The position numbers and the translations under genes were made by a program. The notes below the pieces were generated by a model that did not search any database, was not told where the DNA came from, and saw only the letters and a list, made by a program, of their open reading frames with translations. Of a stretch of 64,000 nucleotides of DNA, positions 16,708 to 29,563 are shown piece after piece; within the stretch, counting starts at the first letter, position 1; each line of letters begins with the position of its first letter. Origin of the DNA: a virus (taxonomy: Duplodnaviria > Caudoviricetes); IMG/VR virus record IMGVR_UViG_3300028886_000037, positions 128,001 through 192,000 of that record; one strand, 5' to 3'.

Positions 16708-16714
16708 TTATTAG

Positions 16715-16761
16715 AGCTACCAGCAGGACTCGAACCTGCGAAGGGATGAACCCAGCAGATT
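16715..16761 (-). pseudogene. orphan 3' tRNA half (U73, long variable arm; Cys-like)
   Basis: AATCTGC-variable arm-GCAGG TTCGAGT CCTGC-TGGTAGC-T, starting at the endonuclease stop. Confidence 0.75.
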
Positions 16762-17374
16762 ATAACAATTTACTGAGGATTCCCTCTATATAGGTTCGTT
16801 TAGCCTCTTTAGGAAGACGTTGGTATTCGGACCAATTACAGCGTCCTAATAGCGTCCATCCTTGCTCCTTTAAATTCTCTGTTCTTTCTTCATCATGTAA
16901 TTTTCCTTTTGATGTGTAATGCGTCTTGCCATCAACTTCAAAATAAAGCTTTTTATCAGGCCATGCAAAATCTAACCAATAGGGTTTTACATAATAGTTA
17001 TTTTCAAATTTTACGTTCTCATTTGTAAAAATGTTAAACCAACTTTGCTCAGCATAACTTCGTTTTCGTCTTCCTATCCATGAACTTGCGCGTCCTTCTC
17101 TATGTGCTTTTTTCATTCCGAGAGAAATTCTTTTGCATATAGCTTCGGTGTTTTTATGTCCTTTACATCGCAGCTTATTTGGATTCTTCTCGCAATGCAT
17201 TTCATGTCTAGTCATTTCACCACGAGTAATATGCTTGATTTTACCGCAGTATTTACATTTTAAATCATATTTAGGTGCTTGGCCATTTTTAATCTTATGT
17301 TCTTCGCTTTTATGCTTATAGAGCTTTCTACGTGATTCGATTTCAGCACCGCAATGTTCGCATACCCAAATCAT
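16760..17374 (-). CDS. Zn-finger + DUF559/Vsr-like homing endonuclease
   Basis: YWLDFAWP..FEVDGKTH. Confidence 0.85.
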   Translation of the reverse strand: MIWVCEHCGAEIESRRKLYKHKSEEHKIKNGQAPKYDLKCKYCGKIKHITRGEMTRHEMHCEKNPNKLRCKGHKNTEAICKRISLGMKKAHREGRASSWIGRRKRSYAEQSWFNIFTNENVKFENNYYVKPYWLDFAWPDKKLYFEVDGKTHYTSKGKLHDEERTENLKEQGWTLLGRCNWSEYQRLPKEAKRTYIEGILSKLL

Positions 17375-17396
17375 TTTTATTTCTCCATTTTAGCTT

Positions 17397-17478
17397 TATA
17401 GTCGTTCCAGCGACCATATTATTTATAGCAGTTAGAAGAACTGGAGATGTTCCTCAGCTGGCTGGAACCAGTTGTCCC
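17397..17478 (-). promoter_or_regulatory. structured endonuclease leader copy 2
   Basis: GGGACA-hairpin(TTCCAG)-CTGA-hairpin-CTAAC-TATAAATA-hairpin(CTGGAA). Confidence 0.7.
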
Positions 17479-17487
17479 ACTATAGTA

Positions 17488-17575
17488 AGCGCTCAGTTGG
17501 ATTTGAACCAACGTGGAGATTTCTCTCAGCGGCTTTGCAGGCCGTGGTCTTCGACCAGGCTCGACCCATGAGCGC
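17488..17575 (-). tRNA. tRNA-Cys(GCA) with long variable arm
   Basis: CGGC-CT GCA AA-GCCG, U73. Confidence 0.85.
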
Positions 17576-17586
17576 ATATTGTTTAG

Positions 17587-17660
17587 TACTCCGTCCAAGA
17601 TTCGAACTTGGATCAAGGGCTTCGTAGGCCCGTATGCTGAGTCCATTACACCAACGGAGC
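17587..17660 (-). tRNA. tRNA-Arg(ACG)
   Basis: CT ACG AA loop. Confidence 0.9.
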
Positions 17661-17665
17661 ATAGT

Positions 17666-17781
17666 CAAGATAACGTCTTTTGAGCTGAGTCCTGAGCCAC
17701 TAGACGACACCGGTATACGCCGATGACTGGATTCGAACCAGTGTTGCAGCTTTGGGATAGTGAAGATGCTGTTGTTATCTT
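17666..17781 (-). ncRNA. ACAGCA-scaffold RNA E5 carrying a circularly permuted tRNA (CCC, Gly-like)
   Basis: AAGATAAC/GTTATCTT; TCCCAA-AGCTG, T arm, acceptor closed by loop, D arm, CAGCT. Confidence 0.8.
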
Positions 17782-17785
17782 ATAG

Positions 17786-17868
17786 TCCTCCAGGAGGGAC
17801 TTGAACCCTCACGCCATTTCTGGCACCAGTTCCTAAGACTGGCGTGTCTGCGATTCCACCACCAGAGG
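17786..17868 (-). tRNA. tRNA-Leu(TAG)
   Basis: CCAGT-CT TAG GA-ACTGG. Confidence 0.9.
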
Positions 17869-17872
17869 ATAG

Positions 17873-17945
17873 TGCCACCCCTCCGTAACGATCGGAGATC
17901 CTCGGATTTTCAGTCCGTTGCATAGACCATCTTTGCTAGAGTGGC
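17873..17945 (-). tRNA. tRNA-Phe(GAA)
   Basis: CT GAA AA loop; atypical T loop ATCGTTA. Confidence 0.8.
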
Positions 17946-17950
17946 ATAAT

Positions 17951-18008
17951 CGAGATTCTTTTGTTTCTTAACCAAAAAGAAGATTTTAGAGTTGCTGTAA
18001 GAACCTCT
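17951..18008 (-). ncRNA. minimal ACAGCA-scaffold RNA E6
   Basis: GAGGTTCTT/AAGAATCTC + ACAGCAA. Confidence 0.65.
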
Positions 18009-18011
18009 TAG

Positions 18012-18085
18012 TCGGCAACCTTGGACTTGAACCAAGAACCTCTGCCTTATCAGAGCAGTGCTCTAACCAATTGAGCTAGATGCCG
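18012..18085 (-). tRNA. tRNA-Ile(GAT)
   Basis: CT GAT AA loop. Confidence 0.9.
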
Positions 18086-18096
18086 ATAAAAAATTT

Positions 18097-18165
18097 CAAG
18101 ATCCATTTTTCTAACGTAGTCTGATTACCAATCGGATGTTATAAGAATTTTGCAGTTAGGATCTT
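18097..18165 (-). ncRNA. scaffold RNA E7 (ACTGCAA variant)
   Basis: AAGATCC/GGATCTT stem. Confidence 0.6.
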
Positions 18166-18171
18166 TAGTAG

Positions 18172-18200
18172 TCTCCGATCAGGGATTCGAACCCCGGACC
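18172..18200 (-). pseudogene. 3' fragment of disrupted tRNA (Val-like)
   Basis: T arm + ATCGGAG-A, pairing with CTCCGGT at 18963-18969. Confidence 0.8.
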
Positions 18201-18211
18201 TGAAACTTTTA

Positions 18212-18285
18212 TCTTCGACCTAGGACTTGAACCTAGAACATCCGTCTTGTAAGGGCGGCGCTCTAACCAATTGAGCTAGCCGAAG
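18212..18285 (-). tRNA. tRNA-Val(TAC), nested inside the insertion
   Basis: CCGCC-CT TAC AA-GACGG; overlaps the endonuclease stop. Confidence 0.9.
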
Positions 18286-18919
18286 TTACGAACGATTTAA
18301 TTGATGAAATTGCCTCTGAAGTATTTCTCATTATGTACTTCCAAGTCAATCTCAGACATTTCCAACCGTTCTCTTTGCAATAAGTGTCTTTTTCGACATC
18401 CATTGCTTTTCTGCTGGGCCATTCATGTTGAGATCCATCAATTTCCAGATAGATCTTTAATTCTGGCCAAGCAAAATCCATGAACCATTTGCCAAAATGA
18501 TATTCTTCAACAAATGGAAAATTAGAAAGCTCCGTTTCGAGTAACCTCTTTGTCCATTCTTCAGCATAAGATCTTTTACATTTACTTCTCGACGACCACC
18601 AGATTCCGCCATTTTCTTTTATCTGTTTCTTACGAATTTCAGATAGCTTCTTCTTTGTGGCTTCAGTATGTTTAGATCCCAAGCGTAAGGCATTTTCGCC
18701 TGAATACCTTTTGCTAAAAGTTTCACTTGCTTGTTTTACTCTCGGATCATTATCCTTAGTTAGTCCTTTGTTCCAAGAAGGATGAGATTTAGAAAAGCCG
18801 TGTTCATCTTTGTGATGTTTCTGGAGTTCTCGTCTCGTTCTACCAACGAACGGACAATACTTGCAGCACCAGTCACCAGATGCGTTTTTCTGTTTTCTCT
18901 CTTTCTCATATCTTCCCAT
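18263..18919 (-). CDS. Zn-finger + NUMOD3 + DUF559-like homing endonuclease
   Basis: SWNKGLTK; WFMDFAWP..LEIDGSQH. Confidence 0.85.
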   Translation of the reverse strand: MGRYEKERKQKNASGDWCCKYCPFVGRTRRELQKHHKDEHGFSKSHPSWNKGLTKDNDPRVKQASETFSKRYSGENALRLGSKHTEATKKKLSEIRKKQIKENGGIWWSSRSKCKRSYAEEWTKRLLETELSNFPFVEEYHFGKWFMDFAWPELKIYLEIDGSQHEWPSRKAMDVEKDTYCKENGWKCLRLTWKYIMRNTSEAISSIKSFVTSASSIG

Positions 18920-18933
18920 ATTTTATTTATAGG

Positions 18934-18969
18934 AAGGATGGCACTCTGAACCAGCTGAGTTAACCGGAG
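18934..18969 (-). pseudogene. 5' fragment of disrupted tRNA (Val-like)
   Basis: CTCCGGT-TA-D arm-CCATC-CTT, then TATAAATA. Confidence 0.8.
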
Positions 18970-18975
18970 AGATAG

Positions 18976-19049
18976 TGCCCCACCAAGGACTTGAACCTTG
19001 AACTCTCTGCTTAAGAGGCAGATACTCTAACCAATTGAGTTAGTGAGGC
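18976..19049 (-). tRNA. tRNA-Lys(CTT)
   Basis: TCTGC-CT CTT AA-GCAGA. Confidence 0.9.
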
Positions 19050-19055
19050 ATATAG

Positions 19056-19128
19056 TTCCGGTAGCAGGGATCGAACCTGCGACTTTCTCCGTATGAAGGA
19101 GATGCTCTACCAACTGAGCTATACCGGG
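19056..19128 (-). tRNA. tRNA-Met(CAT)
   Basis: TCTCC-TT CAT AC-GGAGA. Confidence 0.85.
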
Positions 19129-19198
19129 GGGAAATCCACTGGCAGTTTGTGAGATACTGCCTAAACTCCTGAGGGCTACCTCAGAAAGCTAAAAGATA

Positions 19199-19270
19199 CG
19201 AGATAGAGTGGCCTTGCGCCACGAAACCGCATGATGGAGCAGAGGGGTGAAACTTGCTGTGTCTATCTCA
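19199..19270 (-). ncRNA. ACAGCA-scaffold RNA E8
   Basis: GAGATAGA/TCTATCTC + ACAGCAA; GCAA tetraloop hairpin. Confidence 0.65.
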
Positions 19271-19277
19271 AATTTAG

Positions 19278-19351
19278 TAGCGCCATCGGGACTCGAACCC
19301 GAATTTCCGACTTGAAAGGCCGGTGAACTGAACCAGTTATTCGATGGCGCC
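19278..19351 (-). tRNA. tRNA-Glu(TTC)
   Basis: CT TTC AA loop. Confidence 0.9.
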
Positions 19352-19356
19352 AAAAG

Positions 19357-19465
19357 CGAGATACGTTCTTTGTGTATAGCCCATCTGACTTTCGTCAGAC
19401 TTGCAGCTTTTCAGCTTATGGATTCGAACCACTTACAGTAAGAAATCATTGCTGTTTGTATCTCT
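19357..19465 (-). ncRNA. ACAGCA-scaffold RNA E9 with a T arm and two GAAA hairpins
   Basis: GAGATAC/GTATCTC; GTGG-TTCGAAT-CCAT; AGCT-GAAA-AGCT; TCTGAC-GAAA-GTCAGA. Confidence 0.7.
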
Positions 19466-19595
19466 TTTTCAAATGTGTCAGATACGGCGGATTCGAACCG
19501 CGATCTCAGACGTTGCGACATCTGGGACTTTTTGCACCGTCTCCACGACGGGACCGAAGCTACCTGCTTGTCAGAAGAGATAGAGTTCGCAACCT

Positions 19596-20414
19596 CTAAA
19601 ACTTCCTATCGGTACATATCCTACGCTTAGTAGCGGGACCGGGACTAGAGTCCCGGTCAGAAATGCTAAAACTTTCTTGAATTTTGATAGTCTGTAATAA
19701 TCTGAAAATTTCGTTTTCTCTTTCAATTTTAGAAAGTTTTTGAAATTCAGACCATCTAATTCTTTTTAAGAGCATCCAACCGTTTTCTATTAAAAATTCC
19801 GTTCTGATCTTGTCGTGTTCGATACCTTCTTTAGTATAGTGCTGTTCTCCATCAACTTCAATGTATATTTTTGATTTAGTCCATGCAAAATCTAAAGTAT
19901 ATCGGCCAACTTGATGTTGAGTTTCGGCATCTGTAAATATAGTTTCAAAATACTCTTCAGCATAAGATTTTCTTTTGTTTAACCAATTACAGTGTGTACC
20001 GCTAAGATTTTTAATAGCTGCATCTGATAATTTCCTTTTAGTTTCATCCGAAGTTTTATGACCTTGCCAAATTTGCTTATTCGGATTTTCTTTACAAAAC
20101 TTTTCGTGTCTTGTTAAATCGCAAGCTCTTTTATAAATTAAACCACAGAATTGACAAGGTATGTTTAAATCTGGATGATAGCCATAGAATTTACCTTTGA
20201 TTTCGTTAATATGTCCTTCTTTGCGATGCTGTTGTAATCTACTTCGTGAATGAAAATCATTGCCACAAATTGAACATTTCCAAATTTTAGAATTCTTTTG
20301 TATTCCTCTATTCGGATTTTTAAGACACTGCTTAGAAATGTGTGTTCCTAATTGTGCCCCAGTAGTAAACTCCATGTTACAAAATTTACATATATGTTTT
20401 ATTTCCAATTCCAT
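19596..20414 (-). CDS. multi-Zn-finger + DUF559-like homing endonuclease
   Basis: three C2H2-like fingers; YTLDFAW..IEVDGEQH; start MELEIK after TATAAATA. Confidence 0.85.
   Translation of the reverse strand: MELEIKHICKFCNMEFTTGAQLGTHISKQCLKNPNRGIQKNSKIWKCSICGNDFHSRSRLQQHRKEGHINEIKGKFYGYHPDLNIPCQFCGLIYKRACDLTRHEKFCKENPNKQIWQGHKTSDETKRKLSDAAIKNLSGTHCNWLNKRKSYAEEYFETIFTDAETQHQVGRYTLDFAWTKSKIYIEVDGEQHYTKEGIEHDKIRTEFLIENGWMLLKRIRWSEFQKLSKIERENEIFRLLQTIKIQESFSISDRDSSPGPATKRRICTDRKF
19631..19657 (-). pseudogene. degenerate 3' fragment of initiator-type tRNA
   Basis: CCGGG..CCCGG-TCCCGCT-A, same 3' end as the intact fMet. Confidence 0.55.
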
Positions 20415-20453
20415 ATAGTATTTATAACATGAGCTAACCACTGCTCTAAATTA

Positions 20454-20537
20454 TAGCGGGAGCCAGAGTCGGACTGGCACAAGCATTATCTGTCCCTGGG
20501 TTATGAGCCCAGTATCTTACCATTAGACTATCCCGCG
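20454..20537 (-). tRNA. initiator tRNA-fMet(CAT) with enlarged variable region
   Basis: C1 mismatch; CTGGG-CT CAT AA-CCCAG. Confidence 0.8.
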
Positions 20538-20544
20538 ATAATAG

Positions 20545-20619
20545 TGGACCGTAAGGGAATCGAACCCTTGACATCCAGCTTGCAAAGCTGGCGCTCTACC
20601 AAAACTGAGCTAACAGCCC
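20545..20619 (-). tRNA. tRNA-Ala(TGC)
   Basis: G3.U70; TT TGC AA. Confidence 0.9.
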
Positions 20620-20623
20620 GAAA

Positions 20624-20677
20624 GAATCTGTGAATGGCTCTGACCTCGAAAGGTTCTCCGTACTTACATCACAGATT
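20624..20677 (-). ncRNA. GATGTAAGTA-type stem RNA, copy 2
   Basis: AATCTGTGA/TCACAGATT outer stem. Confidence 0.45.
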
Positions 20678-20681
20678 TTAG

Positions 20682-20754
20682 CTGTCCCACCTGGACTCGA
20701 ACCAGGGACGGGGTGATTAACAGTCACCTACTCTACCAACTGAGCTATGGGACA
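20682..20754 (-). tRNA. tRNA-Asn(GTT)
   Basis: GGTGA-CT GTT AA-TCACC, G73. Confidence 0.9.
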
Positions 20755-20771
20755 TTAAAGATAAAGCCGAA

Positions 20772-20812
20772 GATTTCAATATGCAGATCGGATTCTCGAT
20801 CCAGATCTTTTT
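20772..20812 (-). promoter_or_regulatory. boxB/boxA-like leader (also 24049-24087 and 26360-26395)
   Basis: AGATC..hairpin..GATCTGCATATTGA repeated three times ahead of tRNA runs. Confidence 0.6.
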
Positions 20813-20894
20813 TGTTTGATTCTAATATAGAAACTTCTTTCGGGTTTGTAAACCCTCTTTCTCAGAATTTTTTGAGAAAGTTGTTTATTTATAG

Positions 20895-20967
20895 CTCCCT
20901 GTGGACGACTTGAACGACCGACATCGAAATTACAAATTTCGCGTTCTACCAACTGAACTAACAGGGA
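20895..20967 (-). tRNA. tRNA-Thr(TGT)
   Basis: CGAAA-TT TGT AA-TTTCG. Confidence 0.85.
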
Positions 20968-21052
20968 ATAAGAGCGCTGAGGATATGAGTGAAAAGCTAT
21001 CTCGAGTTCACAGTTCATCGGATATCCTCTCTAAGCATCCTCATCTTCACGT

Positions 21053-21127
21053 GATCGACGAGTGGATTGGAACCACCGCACCAGGCCCCGAATGGGCCTG
21101 CGCTCTACCATGCTGAGCTACGAAGAT
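21053..21127 (-). pseudogene. aberrant tRNA-like element (Pro-like)
   Basis: D and T arms present; 7-bp anticodon stem with 5-nt loop; poor acceptor stem. Confidence 0.55.
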
Positions 21128-21156
21128 ACGTCCTTGAATTCAGACGCTTAGATTAG

Positions 21157-21240
21157 TGGGTAAGGTAGGATTCGAACCTACTAAGCCCGAAGGCAACGGC
21201 TTTACAGGCCGCCCCAACTCACCATCGTTGGCGCTTACCC
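21157..21240 (-). tRNA. tRNA-Tyr(GTA)
   Basis: GCGGC-CT GTA AA-GCCGT, long variable arm. Confidence 0.9.
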
Positions 21241-21528
21241 TTGTACGGCCGGTCATTTATAGTCTTGTGACCGAAGACTTTACCCAACTCACGCTTATGC
21301 CGTTATTTTTCGCGATAGAACCATCACATGTGATGGTAGAATCGAATTCAAGATTCCAGCGGCCTGGTCAGGATGCTTATGCCTATGCTCTCCCCTGACT
21401 CCTTCACAGCCTTCGTCCGCTTGTCTATACGGACTTCTGCTGATCAACCAGTAAGCGCCCTTCCATTGGATCCAATTGACGGCGAAGTAGCGCTCAATGT
21501 AGCGGCCTTTGCAAGGATGGCGACTCCA

Positions 21529-22230
21529 CTATTGCCAGAGTCTCTCCTTCAATTCATAGCGGGACCGATGGGATTCGAACCCACAGCCTCCAGCCTTATT
21601 TTCATAAAGCATTTCTATTCGTTCAGTCCCGTATTTTTTATAAACGTACTCTAAATACTTTTTCATCTCTCTTCTATATAGGACGATTAACGGATATTTG
21701 AAAGTTCTTAATTTTTCCTCCCATCTATTATTTCTACGTCCTTTTATTTCATAATATGTATCGCCTATTTTAAAATCAGGATAGTATTTATGGATTTCTC
21801 CATTGCTTACATATTCAAAGCCTATTTTATTTCTCTCAAATTCTATTCCGTGATCTAAATTATAAATTACGAAAGCTAATTCCCAACGTGAATTGCAATA
21901 AAAGCCTTTATACCATCCAGAATAAATAGTACCAGATTTTTCTCTATAACCACCGCATCCAGCAGCTTTAGAAGTCTCTCTTAACTTCTCTTTTAATTCG
22001 TCCGTCATTCTATGCTTTCTATAGCAATCTTTACAAAATCCGGTCGAATTACGATTATCTAAAGATTTTCCGCAGTCTTTACAAAATCTCTTTTCAGTTT
22101 TTGAAAATAGTTTTGATAGTCTTCTCTTTAGTTCTTCTGTTCTTATTCTGCTATTAGCGCATGCTCTTGAGCAGAATCTTCCGCTTCCAAAAGAGCCATC
22201 ATGCTCTTTTCCACATTTTTCGCAGATCAT
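21529..22230 (-). CDS. Zn-finger + PD-(D/E)XK homing endonuclease
   Basis: CEKCG..RFCSRAC; NSRWE..YYPDF..YEIKGR. Confidence 0.85.
   Translation of the reverse strand: MICEKCGKEHDGSFGSGRFCSRACANSRIRTEELKRRLSKLFSKTEKRFCKDCGKSLDNRNSTGFCKDCYRKHRMTDELKEKLRETSKAAGCGGYREKSGTIYSGWYKGFYCNSRWELAFVIYNLDHGIEFERNKIGFEYVSNGEIHKYYPDFKIGDTYYEIKGRRNNRWEEKLRTFKYPLIVLYRREMKKYLEYVYKKYGTERIEMLYENKAGGCGFESHRSRYELKERLWQ
21560..21595 (-). pseudogene. orphan 3' half of tRNA (Asp-like)
   Basis: GGCTGG-AGGCT-GTGGG TTCGAAT CCCAT-CGGTCCC-G73, inside the endonuclease 3' end. Confidence 0.75.
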
Positions 22231-22254
22231 ATAGCCTCTTTTAACTTTATTTTA

Positions 22255-22339
22255 ACGAGGATCCTTCCATATCCTCGTATTATTTATAGAGGTTAGATCG
22301 AATGGCGAATTCGATCAGGAGGTGGAAGCCTCTTGTCCC
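22255..22339 (-). promoter_or_regulatory. structured endonuclease leader copy 3
   Basis: GGGACA-hairpin(CTTCCA)-CTGA-hairpin-CTAAC-TATAAATA-hairpin(TGGAAG). Confidence 0.7.
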
Positions 22340-22348
22340 TCTTTTTAA

Positions 22349-22422
22349 CGATGCCGGCGAGATTCGAACTCGCGTATGTCGGTTAGACAGACCGATGTGT
22401 TAGGCCACTTCACCACGGCACC
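22349..22422 (-). tRNA. tRNA-Asp(GTC)
   Basis: TCGGT-CT GTC TA-ACCGA, G73. Confidence 0.9.
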
Positions 22423-22427
22423 AGAGA

Positions 22428-23290
22428 CGAGATAGTTTTTCTTACGCGCTCTACCAGTTGAGCTACCTCACAGCATGGCTGCAAGGACGTTAAAATACAC
22501 ATCTCAATAATATCTTCCTATTAGTAATTTATCAGAACTAAAAGCCGATGAATTACAAATATATTCTTTATATTTTGGTATATAACACTTAAATAATCTT
22601 ACAATTTCTGGCAAAAGAGGAATGTTTTCTAATTTTGCAAATTCTCTAATTGACTTATAATTTCCAGAATGGAAATAGTCCCATAATTCCCTTGCTCTAT
22701 TAAATGCACTTATTTTACTTTTGTTAAAGAGTATACTATTTTCTCCTCTAAATAGATTTCTTCCAAGAACCCAATCCTTATTAGGTAAAATTTTGAATTT
22801 TTTGCATTCTCCATTGATTCTATTCGTATACCATTTAGTTCCGTATTGTGAATTTTTATTTCCTTTTTGTTTCAATTTCATACTTTCAGAAACGTATTTT
22901 GCAAATTCTGTTCTAAGCTTTTCGTATGCTCTAGAATTCATATAACGACTCTTATCTTCTGTAGGATGTCCTCTCATCCTCCAGAAGGCATACATCATTT
23001 TTCTTCTCTCATCTGTTCCCTTCTTGAATATCTTTACCAATAGCCAATGACAGAGGAAATGCTCTCTAGCAGTCAAAGGAACTAAGTTATCACGTTGATC
23101 CGATCCTCCTAAAGAACTAGGAAGAATATGATGTTCTTCATAATAACCTTCCGGTTTTCCTCTTATCTTTGCCCTATATACTATTTTCAGATAAACTTTT
23201 CTATAATCCATGTATTATTTATACATTTCATATCTCGAACCCGCAACATCGGTCTTAACAGGACATTTGAGAGTTGCTGTAACTACCTCT
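22428..23290 (-). ncRNA. ACAGCA-scaffold RNA E10 (permuted Asn-like tRNA) interrupted in its T loop by an HNH gene
   Basis: halves 23234-23290 and 22428-22489; GAGGTAGTT/AACTATCTC stem. Confidence 0.75.
22504..23211 (-). CDS. HNH homing endonuclease
   Basis: EEHHILPSSLGGSD..NLVPLTAREHFLCHWLL; TATAAATA upstream. Confidence 0.9.
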   Translation of the reverse strand: MDYRKVYLKIVYRAKIRGKPEGYYEEHHILPSSLGGSDQRDNLVPLTAREHFLCHWLLVKIFKKGTDERRKMMYAFWRMRGHPTEDKSRYMNSRAYEKLRTEFAKYVSESMKLKQKGNKNSQYGTKWYTNRINGECKKFKILPNKDWVLGRNLFRGENSILFNKSKISAFNRARELWDYFHSGNYKSIREFAKLENIPLLPEIVRLFKCYIPKYKEYICNSSAFSSDKLLIGRYY

Positions 23291-23340
23291 AAAATTCAAA
23301 CTGACCCTACTCACCTCAACGCGTCTTATTGGCTTTCAGT

Positions 23341-23412
23341 TAGCGCATGCGAGACTCGAACTCGCAGCCAGCGGCTTTCGACCGCCCGTTCTTCCATTGA
23401 ACGATATGCGTT
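23341..23412 (-). pseudogene. aberrant tRNA-like element (GAA in a non-canonical loop)
   Basis: D and T arms present; GGCGG-TC GAA AG-CCGCT lacks U33. Confidence 0.55.
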
Positions 23413-23427
23413 ATCAGTTAAACACAG

Positions 23428-23500
23428 CGCTGGAAGACAGGCTCGAACTGCCGATCGTCTGCTTACGAAGCAGCTGCTCTACCAGCTGAGCTATTCCAGC
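23428..23500 (-). tRNA. tRNA-Thr(CGT)
   Basis: TT CGT AA loop. Confidence 0.85.
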
Positions 23501-23700
23501 GAATAAGAGTACCGGACCCGAGTTTCTTTCCAGAGCGTCCTCTAGTCTTACGCTCGGGTCCTAGATCAAATCGTGCAGTATGGCAGTGAGGTTGGTCTCC
23601 TTCTCACATCTACGGCGCTAATGCTTAAATCGACCAAAGTGTCGAACCGTGCTCTTTTTATAGACATCTAAGCTATGCCTTGCACAATGTTGATCGTTAG

Positions 23701-23774
23701 TCGGGCATGCAGGATTCGAACCTGCGACCTGGTGCTCCCAAAGCATCCGCTCTACCAGACTGAGCTAATGCCCG
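23701..23774 (-). tRNA. tRNA-Pro(TGG)
   Basis: TT TGG GA loop; CGG/CCG-A acceptor. Confidence 0.9.
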
Positions 23775-23959
23775 ATGACGCCAGTACTAATTCTTGCATG
23801 AAAGTTCCTGACTTGCGAATCTCCTATACTGAAAGAAAATATATCCGCGACGATCGGATGCACTTTGTAGTCCACGTCCAGAGTATGCAACCTCCAGAGC
23901 GTAGAGCCTCTGTTCTTACCACAGTTCATTTTCTATCGCCAGTGTGATCGGCCATTTAG

Positions 23960-24033
23960 TGGACACAGATGGGGTTCGAACCCATGACCCTCTGCTTGCT
24001 AAGCAGATGTTCTACCAGCTGAACTACTGGCCC
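23960..24033 (-). tRNA. tRNA-Ala(AGC) with bulged acceptor
   Basis: TCTGC-TT AGC AA-GCAGA; G3.U70. Confidence 0.7.
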
Positions 24034-24167
24034 ATAAGAAGTTTCCGGTTTTTCAATATGCAGATCCGGTTCTCGACTGGATCTTTTGTTGTTGATCAAA
24101 ATATACTAAAACGAAGCGGAGTTGTAAATACCTCCGCTTCAAAAAATTTGAATTTTTTTGATGGAGG

Positions 24168-24575
24168 TTACCTGATAGGATCCTTGAGCATGTTTAGATA
24201 CTTCAGAGAGCAGAAGGCATCCTTCAGAACGTGGCGCTTGTTGTAGTACTTGATCTGCCATTCGAACTTGCGGTATGGACGGTAACCGAGCAGCTGAGCT
24301 TCTGTGCCGTCTTCGCAGCGGAACCAATGACCGATAGGACTCTGACCTTCTAGCGAAGTTCCCTTGAGCATATCCTTGAGCTGATCAAGAACATAGCCTG
24401 GAATCTTTGCGTCTCCCGAGGCGTCTACTTCTGCCAGCTCTAGAATGCACTTAGCTTCGTAGTCGCTGTACTTGAATGAGATTCCGTTGAGACGGAGGTT
24501 GTTCTCCTTTGCCCAGTCCTTGAGCACCGGATTGAGTTGTTCGCGGAGAGAGTCGCACTTGCTAGAATTGAACAT
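24168..24575 (-). CDS. hypothetical protein
   Basis: ORF with AAGGA RBS after TATAAATA. Confidence 0.65.
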   Translation of the reverse strand: MFNSSKCDSLREQLNPVLKDWAKENNLRLNGISFKYSDYEAKCILELAEVDASGDAKIPGYVLDQLKDMLKGTSLEGQSPIGHWFRCEDGTEAQLLGYRPYRKFEWQIKYYNKRHVLKDAFCSLKYLNMLKDPIR

Positions 24576-24608
24576 GTCTTTATCCTTGTTGTGTTTGTTT
24601 ATTTATAG

Positions 24609-24699
24609 TTGAGCAGGCTGGATTCGAACCAGCGACGGAGGAACTTCCTCTCTAGTGGCTTCAAAGGCCACCGCCTTGACCAGACTTGGCGACTGCCCA
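24609..24699 (-). tRNA. tRNA-Gln(TTG) with long variable arm
   Basis: GTGGC-CT TTG AA-GCCAC; U1-A72. Confidence 0.8.
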
Positions 24700-24705
24700 A
24701 GATAG

Positions 24706-24788
24706 TAGCCGAGGAGAGACTCGAACTCTCACGAGGTTGCCCTCCATGAATTTTAAGTTCACTGCGTCTTCCGTTCCGCCACTCGGCC
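24706..24788 (-). tRNA. tRNA-Leu(TAA)
   Basis: CT TAA AA loop, long variable arm. Confidence 0.9.
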
Positions 24789-24794
24789 AGATTC

Positions 24795-24986
24795 TTAGAA
24801 GAACTGGCGTTGTAACTTGAGCTGGCGCTTCTCAGCTTCGATCTTGTTTCGTTCCTTCTTGACCTTTCCGAGATCGATGCCTGCCTGCTTAGCGAAGCTC
24901 AGAGCCTTCTTTGACTGCTTAGCCCAGCGAGCGTTCTTCTGTTCCATCGTCTCTTCGACTCGTTCTTTCTTTTCCTTCGGTTTCAT
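24795..24986 (-). CDS. small basic protein
   Basis: 63-aa Lys/Arg-rich ORF, GGAG RBS, late promoter. Confidence 0.6.
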   Translation of the reverse strand: MKPKEKKERVEETMEQKNARWAKQSKKALSFAKQAGIDLGKVKKERNKIEAEKRQLKLQRQFF

Positions 24987-25019
24987 AAGATCTCCAAGTT
25001 TTTAGTGTTGTATTTATAG

Positions 25020-25091
25020 TGCGGGTGGCGGGGTTCGAACCCACGACTCGAAGATTAAAATTTAGTACTCTACCAACTGAGTTACACCCAC
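25020..25091 (-). pseudogene. tRNA-Lys(TTT) with broken anticodon stem
   Basis: acceptor, D and T arms intact; CTAAA cannot pair with TCTTC. Confidence 0.7.
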
Positions 25092-25200
25092 GAGTTCTGC
25101 TTCTTTATCCAAGGGATGCAGACAGACCTTGTACGATGAACGGCAGTTTGGTGTGAGCTCGTTCGGGGTATCATGTGAGCTCATTGCCGTTCGCTCATAG

Positions 25201-25280
25201 TACGCCAGGCGGGCTTCGAACCCGCATTTGCAGCTCCAGTTACGGCTAACGGATTAGAAGTCCGACCCGGCTACTGGCGT
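25201..25280 (-). ncRNA. D-armless tRNA-Arg(TCT)-like RNA
   Basis: acceptor, anticodon and T arms present; D-loop-like AACTGGA hairpin in the variable position. Confidence 0.7.
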
Positions 25281-25289
25281 ATGTGTTTC

Positions 25290-25574
25290 TTAGACGCGAG
25301 ATCGAATCTTCTTGAGATCGAACTTCATCGCGGGATAGGTGCAGAAGCCAGAGAAGCCGCAGACTTCGTCGAGTTCTTCAGCTACGCCGTCTTCCGTGAG
25401 AACTTTCACGATGTCGGGCCAGTTGTTGTCGTCAACGAAAGCGCAGTCTTTGGGGAGCTTTTCGCTCTGCCCTTGCAGATAGACGGTAGCGACGCCGTAA
25501 GGACTGCCATCGTCGTTGTTCGCCATCACAGCTAGAGTCTGGCCGTAGTCGTATTTCGATCTTACCCATTCCAT
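25290..25574 (-). CDS. DUF4313-like protein
   Basis: AFVDDNN..SGFCTYP..F motif. Confidence 0.7.
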   Translation of the reverse strand: MEWVRSKYDYGQTLAVMANNDDGSPYGVATVYLQGQSEKLPKDCAFVDDNNWPDIVKVLTEDGVAEELDEVCGFSGFCTYPAMKFDLKKIRSRV

Positions 25575-25577
25575 GTG

Positions 25578-25919
25578 TTAGTCCTCCAAGAAGTCTTCGA
25601 AGTGTTCTTCAGTGACCGGTTCCACGTACTCGTAATTGTCGGAGTGAACCGTAGTGCCGAGGAAGGTCTTGAAGTTGTTGGACCAGAAGCTGTCGCCGTC
25701 CACGTAAGCGTAGTACTTCGGGAAGCAGCCGACCTTCTGGTAGACGTGCTTCATGAGAGCCTTGCCCTCATCCACGTCCTTGACCGTAGCTTCGATTGCG
25801 TCATCTTGGCAGATAACTCCGAGCCAGGTCATGCGGGCAGTCGGATTGACTTCTTTAGCCGCAGCCTGAAGTTCTTTGAGGTGATTGGTTTTGCCGATGA
25901 AGACGATTCGAAAAAGCAT
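25578..25919 (-). CDS. hypothetical early protein
   Basis: ORF after early promoter. Confidence 0.65.
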   Translation of the reverse strand: MLFRIVFIGKTNHLKELQAAAKEVNPTARMTWLGVICQDDAIEATVKDVDEGKALMKHVYQKVGCFPKYYAYVDGDSFWSNNFKTFLGTTVHSDNYEYVEPVTEEHFEDFLED

Positions 25920-26018
25920 AGCTTATTTCCTTGTTGAAGGTTTATCTCTTTTACATTGTAATTATAGCTTTTTCTCGACGTTTTGTAAACCCCAAAAATG
26001 AAGTTTTTTTCAAAATAG

Positions 26019-26091
26019 TCAGCGTGAGTGGGAACGATCCACTGACCTCACCGCCCCGAACGGTGCGCTCTACCAGCTGAGCTACACGCTG
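26019..26091 (-). tRNA. tRNA-Pro(CGG)
   Basis: CACCG-TT CGG GG-CGGTG. Confidence 0.9.
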
Positions 26092-26098
26092 AAATTAG

Positions 26099-26174
26099 CT
26101 GGGAAGGCAGGATTCGAACCTGCGATTTCTAGGGCATTACAGTGCCGTGGCATACCAGACTTGCCGACAACCCA
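26099..26174 (-). pseudogene. aberrant tRNA (Gln-like body, 6-nt CTGTAA loop)
   Basis: D and T arms present; mismatched acceptor. Confidence 0.55.
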
Positions 26175-26180
26175 ATGTAG

Positions 26181-26255
26181 TGGAGACGAAGGGAATCGAA
26201 CCCTTCACAGCCTGATTGCAAGTCAAGCTCGCCATCCTTGGTAACATGCATCCCC
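26181..26255 (-). tRNA. tRNA-Ala(TGC) copy 2, atypical D arm
   Basis: GGGGATG/CGTCTCC-A; CT TGC AA. Confidence 0.75.
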
Positions 26256-26259
26256 ATAG

Positions 26260-26342
26260 TCGGTACGGAAGGACTCGAACCTTCACGCCTTGCGGCATTC
26301 GATTTTGAATCGAACGTGTCTACCCTATTCCACCACGTACCG
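26260..26342 (-). tRNA. tRNA-Leu(CAA)
   Basis: TTCGA-TT CAA AA-TCGAA. Confidence 0.9.
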
Positions 26343-26404
26343 ATAAAGATAAAGCCGAATTGTCAATATGCAGATCTGCTTCACGAGCCGATCTTGTAGG
26401 TATC

Positions 26405-26439
26405 AAAAGAAAAAGAGGAAGTCGAACTGACTTCCTCTT
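26405..26439 (-). terminator. intrinsic terminator with a competing antiterminator
   Basis: AAGAGGAAGTC-AGTTC-GACTTCCTCTT-TTTCTTTT. Confidence 0.8.
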
Positions 26440-26466
26440 GAAATTTCGATACCAGATGGAAGTCAG

Positions 26467-26598
26467 CTATGGACTGATTGGCTTTGCTGCGATGTTGTTG
26501 TCTCTGCAGGCCAATTCAAAATCGAGTCCGCTATTCGGCGCAACAGCCAATTTGTAGTTGGCTTTGCCTTGATAAGATGTGATAGCGGTCAATTTCAT
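26467..26598 (-). CDS. 43-aa candidate leader peptide (not in ORF track)
   Basis: MKLTAITSYQGKANYKLAVAPNSGLDFELACRDNNIAAKPISP; stop abuts the antiterminator. Confidence 0.5.
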   Translation of the reverse strand: MKLTAITSYQGKANYKLAVAPNSGLDFELACRDNNIAAKPISP

Positions 26599-26692
26599 TT
26601 TTGTGTCCAGTGCTGTTTCCAGCTTGTTACGTTTTATTTATACGACAATATAGATAACTTTTTGTGCTTTTCGATGTAAAACTTTGTTTACA

Positions 26693-27121
26693 TTACTTGA
26701 CGGCGTAGATTCCAGCTTCCTTGAGCAGCTGTAGTGCAGACTCTAGCTCTTTGCTCTCAGTCTTTTGCGTTTGCGGCTGCTGCTGAGACTGTTGCGTCTG
26801 CTGCCCCTGTTGCTGTGCGGGCTTCTGCTCAGCTGCCTTCTTGACGTAGTCTATGACCTGCAGAGAGCCGTCGAACTTCTTTACGTCCTTCGGATTCTTC
26901 TGATCCTGAACGACATACGTGATGTCGCTGTTAGCGGTCATAGCGCTCACCTTGTAGATGACAGTGAATCGATCATTGAGGACTACGCCCTCTGCTACCT
27001 TCGTTCCCTTCGGCTTTACTTTGATTCCGGCCTTCTTAGCGTCAACGCATACAGCGTTGATCATATTTGCCATGAGGAACTGGACTGGATCTTTCTTGAA
27101 CTTGTCTACGTTGACGTGCAT
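26693..27121 (-). CDS. late protein with Gln-rich linker, candidate internal head protein
   Basis: SALQLLKEAG motif; TATAAATA at 27150. Confidence 0.6.
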   Translation of the reverse strand: MHVNVDKFKKDPVQFLMANMINAVCVDAKKAGIKVKPKGTKVAEGVVLNDRFTVIYKVSAMTANSDITYVVQDQKNPKDVKKFDGSLQVIDYVKKAAEQKPAQQQGQQTQQSQQQPQTQKTESKELESALQLLKEAGIYAVK

Positions 27122-27193
27122 TTGAAAACCTCTTTAGATTTGTACTTGTTATTTATAGAAAAAAGACTCTCAGTTTCCCGAGAGTCTTGATAG

Positions 27194-27266
27194 CAGCGCC
27201 TACCGGAGTCGAACCGGTGTTACAGCCTTGAGAGGGCCGTGTCCTAGGCCACTAGACGAAGGCGCC
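27194..27266 (-). tRNA. tRNA-Glu(CTC) copy 2
   Basis: CGGCC-CT CTC AA-GGCTG. Confidence 0.9.
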
Positions 27267-27342
27267 GTAGCGAGATCAGTGTTGTTGCACTTACTTCACC
27301 TGTGCGGTACATCGCAGCCTTTTCAACTTTATCTCTTTGTAG

Positions 27343-27415
27343 TGACCAAGCCGGGAGTCGAACCCGGAGGTGCGGCTTAGAAGGCCGCTCGTTTATCCAG
27401 TTAACGGACCTGGCC
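27343..27415 (-). tRNA. tRNA-Arg(TCT)
   Basis: GCGGC-CT TCT AA-GCCGC. Confidence 0.9.
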
Positions 27416-27563
27416 ATATTGTTCCGCGACGGTCATCGTTCATGGGCATGCAGCATTACCAGTTTCGTCCATTGGCAGTTCTCGTTGGCGGAACGATCAT
27501 AATATAGAAAAGAAGTTCACCTTCGTAAACCCCTTCTCCATATTTTTTTAGTAGGCTCACCGG

Positions 27564-28190
27564 TTAGTAGTTCGAGATCTGACGGAACTTGTTAGTCGCC
27601 CACTTCGCGTAGAAGTACACGAACACGTCGATCTTGGACTTCATGATAGCCTGACCGAGCATCAAGAGATACGCGTAGAACTTCAGGATGCGGCGCCAGA
27701 ATGCCTTCTCGTCGACTAGAACCTGATCCTTCTTCCAGCTCTTGTTCTTCAAGCAGTTGGTAGCAGAAGTGAGGTACTCGTACACGCAGAGACGATTCTC
27801 GAATGTCATCGTGTAGTTGTCTTCGAAAATCTCATCTTCGTTGAACTGGTCCGGATGTACGCCTAGCAGAATCATCATCTCGGTAGCGAAGATCAGAGCG
27901 TCTTCGAACTCTTCCTTGACGTGTTCCCAGTTGCCCTCAGACTCAGCCATCTTCATCTCGCCGAGCTCTTCCATGACGCGCTGTGAGAGGATCTTGATGA
28001 TGAGCTGGTCGCGGGTGTTGTTGATGTCCAAGTTGCGGTGGATGTTGTATGGATTCTGCGGATCGTTCTCACCTTCGATCTTCACGTAAGCGTCGATGAG
28101 GCTGTCCTGCATCTTGAACATGCCAGCGATGATGCCCTGGTCCATGTACTTGACATACTCTTTGTTGTCTTTGTAGTCTGAAACGTTCAT
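27564..28190 (-). CDS. all-alpha NTP pyrophosphohydrolase (dCTPase/dUTPase-like)
   Basis: EELGE..KEEFEDALIF..LKNKSWK. Confidence 0.75.
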   Translation of the reverse strand: MNVSDYKDNKEYVKYMDQGIIAGMFKMQDSLIDAYVKIEGENDPQNPYNIHRNLDINNTRDQLIIKILSQRVMEELGEMKMAESEGNWEHVKEEFEDALIFATEMMILLGVHPDQFNEDEIFEDNYTMTFENRLCVYEYLTSATNCLKNKSWKKDQVLVDEKAFWRRILKFYAYLLMLGQAIMKSKIDVFVYFYAKWATNKFRQISNY

Positions 28191-28229
28191 TTTAGTTTTC
28201 CTTTCAAAAGTTAAGTAAAGCTTGTCTTC

Positions 28230-28784
28230 TTAGGCGAATGCGCCTGTTCCAAAATCTAGAATTTTCTTTACGTTCGCGGTATTCTCAATAGTCGCTTCGA
28301 ACCAGCCGTCAAACTTCTTGTAGTCAGAGTCCTTCGTCCAGTCGAAGATGAACAGAGGTCTGCCCTTGCAAGCGAGTTCGTTCTCGGTGAAGATCGTGTA
28401 CAGATCACGCAGCTTGTCGATGTTGTCGATGATGCCGTCCATCTGCTCGCGATCGCCAAAGTTCTTCACGGTGTCCATAGACGGGCATGCGTAGATGAAC
28501 ATGTCGATCTGAGAGAGGAAGTGATCCTTGTCGATGTACTCATCGTCAAATCGATCAGCGCCACGGAGAACGATGCCGTTCGTGAACTCTTCGATGATAG
28601 AGAATCTGTCGAACACGGACTTCTTGCCGTTGTTGAGATTTTCTTCTAGATAGTCAAGAACTTCTTTTGTCTGCATCTTCGGTCCGCCCTTTGATCGGAC
28701 GTACTCGAAACCGAACTTGTCGGCGATATGATTAGCCAAAGAAGTCTTGCCTGAATTGTCGCAACCGTATACTACTACATTCAT
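28230..28784 (-). CDS. dNMP (thymidylate-like) kinase
   Basis: P-loop GCDNSGKT; DRF. Confidence 0.85.
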   Translation of the reverse strand: MNVVVYGCDNSGKTSLANHIADKFGFEYVRSKGGPKMQTKEVLDYLEENLNNGKKSVFDRFSIIEEFTNGIVLRGADRFDDEYIDKDHFLSQIDMFIYACPSMDTVKNFGDREQMDGIIDNIDKLRDLYTIFTENELACKGRPLFIFDWTKDSDYKKFDGWFEATIENTANVKKILDFGTGAFA

Positions 28785-28873
28785 AAGTTTACCTTCTTTT
28801 GAAGTTAAATATAATCATTTATAGAACACAAAAATTCCGCCCTTGCGAGCGGAACTTCTAGTGGAAGATCAGA

Positions 28874-29563
28874 TTAGAAGATCGTGTCTTCGAAGTCCTT
28901 GCGGTAAGCGTGGAGCGAGAACACAGTCTGCTGGAAGTTTCCTACCTTCATGCCGACTTTCTCTGCTACGTACTCGAGTAGACGGATAGAGAGGTACACG
29001 TCATTGCAGAAGTGAGTGTAGATGTCGCAGGAGCGCATCACGTTGTGCATGTTGAGCTTTCCGCCACGATAGAAGAAGTGATAGCCAAGAGTGCAGGGAC
29101 AACGGCCAACTCCAGTGAACTTGTCTGGATCTTCGTTCGGATCCCACATCGAGAGCCAAGCCTGACGAGTCATCGGGTCGTTCTTGAGACACTGGATGAT
29201 CTTGTCTAGCTGCTTGTTGCGATGGTAGCGCTCGTTGTAAGTGTAGCTCTGCTTGCCGTTCATCAGGAACTCAGTCCAGACTTCAGCTCTGAGCTTCCAA
29301 GCTTCACCTGGGTTCATGTCCTCAGGTGCGATACGTTCGAGAAACTCAGCGTCTGCCCACGGCTGCGTAACGCCAGTGATGTCGGAGGACTTAGCGTTCT
29401 GGAGAACCCATGAGTAGTTCTGGATCTCCTTGGTCTCGAACATCGGGTTCTTCTCGATGTCCTTGTTCTGGTAGGTTTTAGTGTGAACGGAGATGCCGTT
29501 CTCAGACACATCGCGCTTGATTTCGCCGTATGCGTCTTTCCAGTTAGCGTAGATTCTTGCCAT
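28874..29563 (-). CDS. thymidylate synthase-family enzyme of the dCMP hydroxymethylase type
   Basis: PCT; MRSCDIYTHFCND with Asp at the dCMP-specificity position; SLHAY. Confidence 0.8.
   Translation of the reverse strand: MARIYANWKDAYGEIKRDVSENGISVHTKTYQNKDIEKNPMFETKEIQNYSWVLQNAKSSDITGVTQPWADAEFLERIAPEDMNPGEAWKLRAEVWTEFLMNGKQSYTYNERYHRNKQLDKIIQCLKNDPMTRQAWLSMWDPNEDPDKFTGVGRCPCTLGYHFFYRGGKLNMHNVMRSCDIYTHFCNDVYLSIRLLEYVAEKVGMKVGNFQQTVFSLHAYRKDFEDTIF

What the first reader, a model, noticed from the sequence alone, without database searches (positions are those of the whole stretch)
22428..23290. HNH gene inserted in the T loop of a permuted Asn-like scaffold RNA
Seen: removing 22490-23233 joins GCGGG-TTCGAG to CGT-CCTTGCAGC-CAT-GCTGTGAGG-TA-D arm, with about 3 nt missing. 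Upstream lie CT GTT AA and ACAGCAA, and an encoded G73-CCA sits in the closed acceptor. No replacement copy is carried. Inference: the scaffold RNAs are conserved enough among competing phages to be homing targets.
Basis: partly seen in the sequence, partly recalled or inferred. Interest (0 to 1): 0.75.

Follow-up and report, generated by a model that had tools for sequence, protein, structure and literature searches.

The report
Homing endonuclease gene splitting tRNA-mimic RNA
A selfish DNA-cutting-enzyme gene sits exactly inside one arm of a small tRNA-shaped RNA gene of a 248-kb rumen phage. Sister phages still carry the unbroken gene, so this is a clear natural case of a mobile nuclease invading a non-coding RNA gene with no intron and no spare copy.

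Summary
Window 22490-23233 (744 nt, minus strand) is an insert holding only a 235-aa HNH endonuclease gene. It splits a 121-nt structured RNA gene.

- **Empty site:** six sister-phage contigs carry that gene intact. Their flanks match the window's 56/56 and 62/62, and TCC stands where the insert is. The insert therefore replaces the last T-loop base and two bases of the 3' T stem.
- **Target RNA:** seven intact alleles exist. They fold as a 9-bp handle, ACAGCAA, a 3-bp stem with a 7-nt anticodon-like loop, a T arm, a closed acceptor hairpin with compensatory changes, and a D arm. The intact allele matches the tRNA-like core of Rfam YrlA at 40 bits, below the family cut-off.
- **Mobility:** a second background carries the same insert at the same junctions. 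The insert is 741/744 identical while the flanks are 93-96% identical. The insert has 30% GC against about 50% for native genes.
- **Insertion site of relatives:** relatives of 48-84% identity sit at broken T loops (GTTC...) in six other contexts.
- **No spare copy:** the 248-kb genome holds no second copy of the element.

The encoded CCA and the Asn anticodon are allele-specific, not conserved. The scan had already noted related nuclease cassettes and scaffold RNAs in this genome, and phage Y-like RNAs in other genomes. No cleavage assay was done.

The parts
23281..23289 (-). 5' strand of the 9-bp terminal handle (GAGGTAGTT)
   Evidence: Pairs with 22429-22437 with one G-U. Invariant and 100% paired in 7 intact alleles. 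Same layout in nine other elements of the window.
23274..23280 (-). ACAGCAA motif after the handle
   Evidence: Invariant in all alleles. The same motif occurs in other phages' tRNA-like elements.
23250..23264 (-). 3-bp stem GTC/GAC with 7-nt loop CTGTTAA, then CG that can pair with CG at 22445-22446 (composite anticodon-like stem)
   Evidence: Loop positions 34-36 vary among alleles (GTT, GAT, GTC). C32, U33, A37 and A38 are kept.
23234..23244 (-). T-stem 5' strand GCGGG plus the first six T-loop bases TTCGAG, ending at the insertion point
   Evidence: Identical to the intact alleles up to this base.
22490..23233 (-). 744-nt mobile insert, replacing TCC of the intact allele
   Evidence: Absent from about 20 sister contigs. 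741/744 identical in L056 while flanks are 93-96%. GC 0.30 against 0.50-0.53 for native ORFs.
23212..23233 (-). Conserved cassette leader ATATGAAATG-TATAAATA-ATAC with a late-promoter-like octamer (23216-23223) 4 nt before the ATG
   Evidence: The same leader or spacing occurs in L007, L022, L025, L021, L060 and L061. TATAAATA occurs 19 times against 1.14 expected, 17 of them on the minus strand. The weak hairpin ATGTAT/ATACAT covers the start codon.
22504..23211 (-). HNH homing endonuclease gene, 235 aa
   Evidence: phrog_655 'homing endonuclease' at 3.9e-40. The HH...DN...EH motif aligns to the McrA HNH. 1073 phage records have homologs annotated as homing endonuclease or mobD.
22487..22489 (-). 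Remaining CGT of the T-stem 3' strand (CCCGT in intact alleles)
22466..22486 (-). Closed acceptor-like hairpin: 9 bp with loop CAT
   Evidence: Three pairs show compensatory double changes among alleles.
22445..22465 (-). U8-A9, D arm (GCTC-AACTGGTA-GAGC), G26, CG
   Evidence: Invariant. Aligned to the D arm of Rfam YrlA in the intact allele.
22428..22437 (-). 3' strand of the handle (AACTATCTC) plus the 3' G

Best explanation
A free-standing T4 Mob-like HNH homing endonuclease gene has inserted into the T arm of a conserved 121-nt tRNA-mimic RNA gene lying between tRNA-Phe and tRNA-Asp in the phage's tRNA operon. That RNA has YrlA-like architecture: T arm, closed acceptor, D arm and an anticodon-like loop, clamped by a 9-bp handle with ACAGCAA. 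Shown: the exact empty site exists, and the cassette is present or absent among near-identical phages. It is far more conserved than its flanks, is compositionally foreign, and belongs to a clade that always sits at a broken T loop. Inferred: during co-infection the enzyme cuts or nicks the intact allele near GCGGG-TTCGAGT-CCCGT. Its most likely recognition sequence is the invariant 22 nt on the 5' side. Repair from the HNH-bearing genome then copies the cassette in, along with adjacent markers. The carrier is immune because the insert replaces TCC and separates the two half-sites. The RNA gene is most likely inactivated, since the T stem is reduced to 3 possible pairs and no intron is present. 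The phage would tolerate this because it carries nine other handle RNAs. Expression is probably from read-through of the tRNA operon and from the TATAAATA element 4 nt before the ATG. That spacing would give a leaderless or near-leaderless late mRNA.
For: Empty site identical to the window flanks with TCC. Intact alleles in L003, L004, L005, L030-L041, L045, L049 and L050. Structure 98.7% paired, with 3 compensatory pairs. YrlA core match of 40.1 bits, E 6e-8, on the intact allele. HNH family hits. Insert 741/744 identical in L056 against flanks of 92.9% and 95.9%, and L056 has a different 5' allele and lacks the neighbouring 233-aa nuclease cassette. GC 0.30 against about 0.50. Six other contexts of relatives with 48-84% identity are all broken at GTTC of a T loop and share TATAAATA-N4-ATG. 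No near-copy of the 44-nt target elsewhere in the window, best 28/44. No second copy of the element in the genome. No intron family in Rfam at E<=1.
Against: No cleavage data exist. Pfam HNH (PF01844) does not reach E 0.01 on this protein, and the PDB motif match is weak (E 0.057). The more distant L007 lineage has different junctions (GTTCG on both sides), so the insertion history is not a single simple event. In L007 the cassette (84-86% nt) is no more conserved than its flanks (77-86%), which fits long residence there. The function of the target RNA is unknown, so 'inactivated at tolerable cost' is inference.
Confidence: 0.78

Rival explanations
1. The cassette is mobile but does not home by cutting this site itself. 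It spreads passively by ordinary homologous recombination between sister phages, or by trans-homing driven by a neighbouring nuclease, as MobE mobilises the defunct I-TevIII in T4.
For: The tRNA region of this phage is packed with other nuclease genes. One example is the 233-aa gene 270 nt downstream, which is absent from sisters. Alleles of the element are visibly reshuffled among sisters: L037 combines the 5' part of one allele with the 3' part of another.
Against: L056 carries the HNH cassette without the 233-aa neighbour. The ORF is intact, with only 1 amino-acid change between backgrounds. The whole clade is tied to T-loop breaks in unrelated genomic contexts, which points to site-specific activity of the enzyme itself.
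Confidence: 0.12
2. The insert is ancestral, and the intact alleles arose by repeated precise loss.
For: Some cassettes of the clade are flanked by short direct repeats of the target (12 nt in L024, GTTCG in L007). Such repeats could mediate deletion.
Against: In the window allele there is no repeat that could restore TCC. The cassette is 99.6% identical across backgrounds that are 4-7% diverged. About 20 contigs with 7 allele types are all empty. The insert's GC content is foreign.
Confidence: 0.04
3. The RNA still works despite the insert. Either the insert is removed by proteins or a cryptic ribozyme, or the two halves assemble through the 9-bp handle.
For: Both halves are kept base-perfect in two backgrounds. 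The handle could still pair across the ORF.
Against: No intron model matches. Three bases of the T arm are missing, so exact rejoining of the flanks would not restore it. An earlier scan note on a similar insert (e1-144097) records that a later check set the odds that proteins rejoin the halves at 14/100. I did not test that claim.
Confidence: 0.06

Closest known systems
T4 Mob-family free-standing HNH homing endonucleases (e.g. MobE; Wilson & Edgell 2009, PMC2790892; review PMC2988022)
   Same: A free-standing HNH gene in a T4-like phage. It is AT-rich relative to its genome, is present or absent between close relatives, and is inherited with adjacent markers. Homologs in T4-like coliphages and Klebsiella phages are annotated mobD or homing endonuclease.
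   Different: Mob genes lie between protein genes. This one lies inside an RNA gene and destroys one of its arms. Identity to cultured-phage homologs is below 40% over the full length.
T4 SegB, a GIY-YIG homing endonuclease in the tRNA gene cluster (my own knowledge; also cited in PMC13096335 and in scan note e1-5642352)
   Same: A homing endonuclease living in, and targeting, a phage tRNA gene region.
   Different: SegB belongs to a different nuclease family. It sits between tRNA genes, not inside one.
YrlA-type Y RNA-like tRNA mimics (Rfam RF02553; Chen et al. 2014, PMC4201824)
   Same: The target RNA has the same order: T arm, closed acceptor stem-loop, D arm, with the RNA ends on the anticodon side. 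The intact allele matches model positions 22-89.
   Different: The score of 40 bits is below the 69-bit cut-off. There is no GNCGAAN0-1G Ro60-binding motif. The handle with ACAGCAA is different, an anticodon-like loop is retained, and the genome has no Pfam TROVE protein.
Intron-encoded homing endonucleases in tRNA or rRNA genes (group I introns; e.g. HNH I-HmuI, my own knowledge)
   Same: A nuclease gene inside an RNA gene, with an exact empty site in relatives.
   Different: No ribozyme is detectable, and 3 nt of the host gene are lost. This is an insertion, not an intron.
Nuclease cassettes that break a tRNA gene and bring a replacement copy (scan notes e1-5642350 and e1-5642352; seen here in L022, L021, L060, L061, Vibrio phage VB_VaC_SRILMA and Rhizobium phage LG08)
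   Same: Members of the same HNH clade, with the same T-loop break and the same leader.
   Different: Here, and in L056 and L007, the victim is a tRNA mimic and no replacement is supplied.

Membership tests
HNH (beta-beta-alpha-Me) endonucleases | Catalytic HH...N...H motif and a family-level sequence match | tested here: met
   phrog_655 at 3.9e-40. Residues 22-56 align to the McrA HNH with the His-His, Asp-Asn and Glu-His kept, but weakly (E 0.057). Pfam PF01844 was not reached at E 0.01.
Homing endonuclease gene (functional class) | Presence/absence polymorphism at one exact site among close relatives | tested here: met
Homing endonuclease gene (functional class) | Cassette more conserved than its flanks and compositionally foreign | tested here: met
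   741/744 identical against flanks of 93-96%. GC 0.30 against 0.50.
Homing endonuclease gene (functional class) | The enzyme cleaves the empty allele, and the occupied allele is immune | not testable with these tools
   Needs a nuclease assay.
YrlA (Rfam RF02553) | Score at or above the gathering threshold | tested here: not met
   40.1 bits against 69, and only model positions 22-89 matched.
YrlA (Rfam RF02553) | tRNA-like domain in the order T arm, closed acceptor, D arm | tested here: met
YrlA (Rfam RF02553) | GNCGAAN0-1G (Ro60-binding) motif and a TROVE/Ro60 partner gene | tested here: not met
   No motif in 7 alleles. No PF05731 in the genome. A DUF2828/DUF7788 protein with a sub-threshold vWA_Ro60 hit exists, but its fold is unverified.
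Canonical tRNA gene (RF00005 / ARAGORN) | Linear cloverleaf scoring above threshold | tested here: not met
   18.6 bits against 29 on the intact allele. ARAGORN calls nothing there in the sister loci. It accepts only an artificially un-permuted construct, and that construct has a poor T arm.
Group I / II intron | Ribozyme core detectable around the ORF | tested here: not met
   No intron family at E<=1 in window 13000-29000. The insert is a 22-nt leader, the ORF and a 14-nt tail.

The most novel reading that the evidence does not exclude
This HNH clade uses the near-universal tRNA T-arm sequence as a landing pad. It can therefore jump between true tRNA genes and tRNA-mimic RNAs. Where it lands in a handle RNA it is not just a disruption. 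The retained handle halves would pair across the ORF, so the scaffold-RNA processing or stability system excises and protects the nuclease mRNA. The selfish gene would then be using a structured-RNA chassis as its expression vehicle.
Probability: 0.1. Interest if true: 0.75.

Novelty: new variant of a known kind. Interest (0 to 1): 0.55.

Why it matters
Free-standing homing endonuclease genes are thought to survive by landing between genes, inside self-splicing introns or inteins, or, as seen elsewhere in this phage, by bringing a spare copy of what they break. This is a population-documented case where none of these applies. A structured non-coding RNA gene is split in its T arm, and the exact empty allele circulates in sister phages. 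This gives a ready-made substrate pair for defining a tRNA-T-arm-specific HNH enzyme. It also provides a natural knock-out of one member of an uncharacterised family of handle-tagged tRNA mimics, which bears on whether those RNAs are individually dispensable.

Tried and rejected
- **Direct join of the flanks:** ARAGORN finds no tRNA in any of 500 direct joins. It accepts an artificial un-permutation only in 38 of 96,768 variants, with a weak T arm. I gave this no weight.
- **Searches that found no relatives:** the viral-contig scan with the neighbouring protein and with exact flank patterns found none. One 19-nt hit (L029) is a chance match in coding DNA. 'Relatives' cannot be drawn for a virus record, and records behind the metagenome loci are not held.
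- **Cultured phages:** they have no DNA-level relative of the locus.
- **T4 stable RNAs:** rnaC and rnaD were checked for the handle. rnaC has a T arm, but neither has the GAGAT...ACAGCAA layout.
- **Ro60 partner:** Pfam TROVE is absent. The single-sequence fold of the DUF2828/DUF7788 protein failed (pLDDT 39.8), so no fold search was made.
- **Ideas rejected:** I rejected the idea that the flanks are two unrelated tRNA remnants, and the idea that CCA or the Asn anticodon is a conserved feature.

Full report
**Setting.** The window is bases 128001-192000 of a 247,923-base IMG/VR virus record, 98% complete. Positions 14-27.4 kb hold 37 ARAGORN-called tRNA genes, all on the minus strand. They are interspersed with nuclease genes. 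The finding lies between tRNA-Phe (23339-23413) and tRNA-Asp (22348-22423).

**The observation.** Read on the minus strand, the 5' flank (23289-23234) runs as follows:
- GAGGTAGTT, then ACAGCAA, then a 9-nt linker
- GTC-CTGTTAA-GAC, then CG, then ATGTT
- GCGGG, then TTCGAG

Then come 744 nt (23233-22490): a 22-nt leader, a 235-aa ORF (23211-22504) and a 14-nt tail.

The 3' flank (22489-22428) runs as follows:
- CGT
- a 9-bp hairpin CCTTGCAGC-CAT-GCTGTGAGG
- TA, then a canonical D arm, then G, then CG
- a linker, then AACTATCTC, then G

The outer 9 nt of the two flanks pair with each other.

**The empty site.** A metagenome scan with the neighbouring 135-aa protein, and then exact look-ups of that protein's cluster members, gave about 25 sister contigs.
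- In about 20 of them the two flanks are adjacent, with 3-4 nt between them.
- Six contigs (L033, L034, L035, L036, L038, L039) carry a 121-nt element identical to the window's flanks (56/56 and 62/62), with TCC where the insert is.
- The intact T arm is therefore GCGGG-TTCGAGT-CCCGT. The insert replaces the last loop base and the first two bases of the 3' stem.

**The insertion is real.** L057, a JGI contig, is 100% identical over 2291 nt. L056, a Logan contig, shows the same junctions in another genetic background.

**The target RNA.** Seven distinct intact alleles align at 95% mean identity. I named the following structure for them:
- a 9-bp handle
- a 3-bp stem with a 7-nt loop
- a 2-bp CG/CG closure that completes an anticodon-like stem
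- a 5-bp T stem
- a 9-bp closed acceptor
- a 4-bp D stem

This structure is 98.7% paired, against 37-51% when the partners are slid. All three compensatory pairs lie in the closed acceptor helix.

Rfam aligns the intact L003 allele to the tRNA-like core of YrlA (T arm, closed acceptor, D arm). The score is 40.1 bits, E 6e-8, below the 69-bit cut-off. The tRNA model gives only 18.6 bits. The element lacks the GNCGAAN0-1G motif that Chen et al. 2014 (PMC4201824) tie to Ro60 binding. The genome has no Pfam TROVE protein. I therefore describe the RNA as built like a YrlA-type tRNA mimic with a different handle, not as a member of that family.

The same handle layout, (G/A)AGAT-NNNN-ACAGCAA ... NNNN-ATCT(C/T), closes nine other elements in the window. 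ACAGCAA also occurs in tRNA-Asn-like elements of other IMG/VR phages. There the handle helix is a hairpin and the order is not permuted.

The loop triplet differs among alleles (GTT, GAT, GTC). So does the triplet after G73 (CCA, CTA, CCT, TCA). 'Asn-like' and 'encoded CCA' therefore describe this allele, not the family.

**The insert.** The ORF matches phrog_655 'homing endonuclease' at 3.9e-40. It carries an HH...DN...EH motif that aligns to the McrA HNH. It has homologs in 1073 phage records, many annotated as homing endonuclease or mobD. Its GC content is 0.30, against 0.50-0.53 for neighbouring native ORFs. There is no room for a replacement RNA, and the genome has no second copy of the element. 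No intron model matches the region.

**Evidence for mobility.**
- *Presence or absence does not follow relatedness.* Sisters with flanks about 94% identical lack the cassette. L056 and the more distant L007 group have it.
- *The cassette is far more conserved than its flanks.* Between the window and L056 it differs at 3 of 744 positions. The upstream 900 nt are 92.9% identical and the region further downstream is 95.9% identical. L056 has a different 5' allele of the element (CAATTG...GAT) and lacks the 233-aa nuclease cassette next door. The variable acceptor hairpin just 3' of the insert is identical in both. This fits co-conversion.
- *The clade sits at broken T loops.* Relatives of 48-84% identity lie at T-loop breaks in six other contexts:
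  - L007: the orthologous handle RNA.
  - L022-L024: a tRNA-Thr(UGU) broken at GGCGG-TTC, with a divergent replacement tRNA-Thr 4 nt after the stop.
  - L025 and L026: an Asn-type remnant ending in TTCG.
  - L021 and L060: two separate Ile contexts, each a remnant ending in GTTCA with a tRNA-Ile right after the stop.
  - L061: an Ile remnant ending in GTTCA, with a tRNA-Ile 7 nt after the stop.

  All share TATAAATA-N4-ATG, and most share the leader ATATGAAATG.
- *More distant homologs break a different loop.* The cultured-phage homologs (37-39% identity) follow a tRNA broken in the anticodon loop and overlap a replacement tRNA.

The targets of the window enzyme and of its 54% relative in L022 resemble each other (GTTG-CGGG-TTCGA-TCCCGTCC against GTTGGCGG-TTCGA-TCCGTCC). 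The 22 nt upstream of the insertion point are invariant in all alleles. Nothing else in the window comes closer than 28/44 to the target. This fits self-immunity.

**Mechanism.**
- *Shown:* an intact HNH gene occupies a precise site in a conserved structured-RNA gene, and it moves between genomes as a unit.
- *Inferred:* the enzyme cuts or nicks the empty allele near the T arm in mixed infections, and repair copies the cassette in.
- *Inferred:* the interrupted RNA is dead. Its T stem is cut down, and exact rejoining of the flanks would still lack 3 nt. The loss would be tolerated because other handle RNAs remain. A sister variant (L044) has even deleted most of this element together with tRNA-Phe and half of tRNA-Thr.
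- *Expression:* TATAAATA occurs 19 times in the window against 1.14 expected, 17 of them on the coding strand. One copy sits 4 nt before the ATG at a spacing conserved across the clade. This suggests a T4-type late transcript starting at or next to the start codon. A weak hairpin (ATGTAT/ATACAT, -3.9 kcal/mol for the leader) could mask the ATG in read-through transcripts. This part is speculative.

**Complication.** In L007 the junctions differ. GTTCG stands on both sides, the 5' T-stem strand does not match the 3' one, and part of that 5' flank recurs next to the L025 cassette. There the cassette (86.5% nt over the insert, 84% over the wider stretch) is no more conserved than its flanks (77-86%). 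The clade has therefore lived in this RNA for a long time, and its junctions have been reshaped. The window/L056 spread is the recent event.

**Comparison and novelty.** The enzyme class and the homing logic are known (T4 Mob and Seg proteins; PMC2790892, PMC2988022). What is unusual is the target and the lack of compensation. The victim is a non-coding tRNA mimic hit in its T arm, with no intron and no spare copy. Other reports of this scan already describe the replacement-bearing cassettes and the handle RNAs in this genome, and phage Y-like RNAs in other genomes. This report adds the exact empty site, the allele series, the second background and the clade-wide T-loop rule. I file it as a new variant of a known kind.

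Noticed in passing
L044:2230-2290 (Logan SRR33964924): A sister variant in which the 5' half of tRNA-Thr(cgt) is fused at its D arm to the D arm of the handle RNA. This deletes the rest of tRNA-Thr, tRNA-Phe and most of the element. A DUF559 nuclease gene lies just upstream.
   Followed up: partly
G000:C1:205863-207425 (L058:781-2343, minus), outside the window: A 520-aa protein with DUF7788 (138.7 bits), DUF2828 (97.7 bits) and a sub-threshold vWA_Ro60 hit (E 0.0097). It is a possible Ro60-like partner for the handle RNAs. The single-sequence fold failed (pLDDT 39.8).
   Followed up: partly
L012:470-595 and the same in L013-L020 (IMG/VR contigs of 65-127 kb): A non-permuted tRNA-Asn-like gene in other phages. 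It carries a hairpin plus ACAGCAA inserted between the D arm and a 3-bp stem with a CTGTTAA loop. It looks like the linear counterpart of the window's permuted element.
   Followed up: no
window 23255-23261 and columns 29-35 of alignment A5: Among alleles 95% identical overall, the loop triplet is GTT, GAT or GTC, while C32, U33, A37 and A38 are fixed. Two of the few variable columns fall on the 'anticodon'. GTT and GTC are G-U-N types.
   Followed up: no
window 21595-22411: The adjacent tRNA-Asp plus the 233-aa nuclease gene is absent from the sisters examined here (L003, L030, L033, L034, L037, L038, L049, L056). They have a different tRNA-Asp (about 84% identical) joined directly to the sequence at window 21582-21594.
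   Followed up: partly
window, whole: TATAAATA occurs 19 times against 1.14 expected, 17 times on the minus strand. Several copies lie just upstream of nuclease genes or tRNA groups.
   Followed up: partly
window 2039-2359 (minus): A paralog of the HNH gene (46% identity over the first 104 aa, open frame 237 aa) lies elsewhere in the genome.
   Followed up: no
L024:2330-2400 against L022: In the tRNA-Thr cassette, the 12-nt target stretch GGTTGGCGGTTC is present on both sides of the cassette (HNH plus replacement tRNA). This is a direct repeat of the T-arm target.
   Followed up: no
L055:2909-3047 (T4 rnaC): T4 species 1 RNA ends in a canonical T arm (CCGGG-TTCGAAT-CCCGG). It lacks the handle/ACAGCAA layout.
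   Followed up: no
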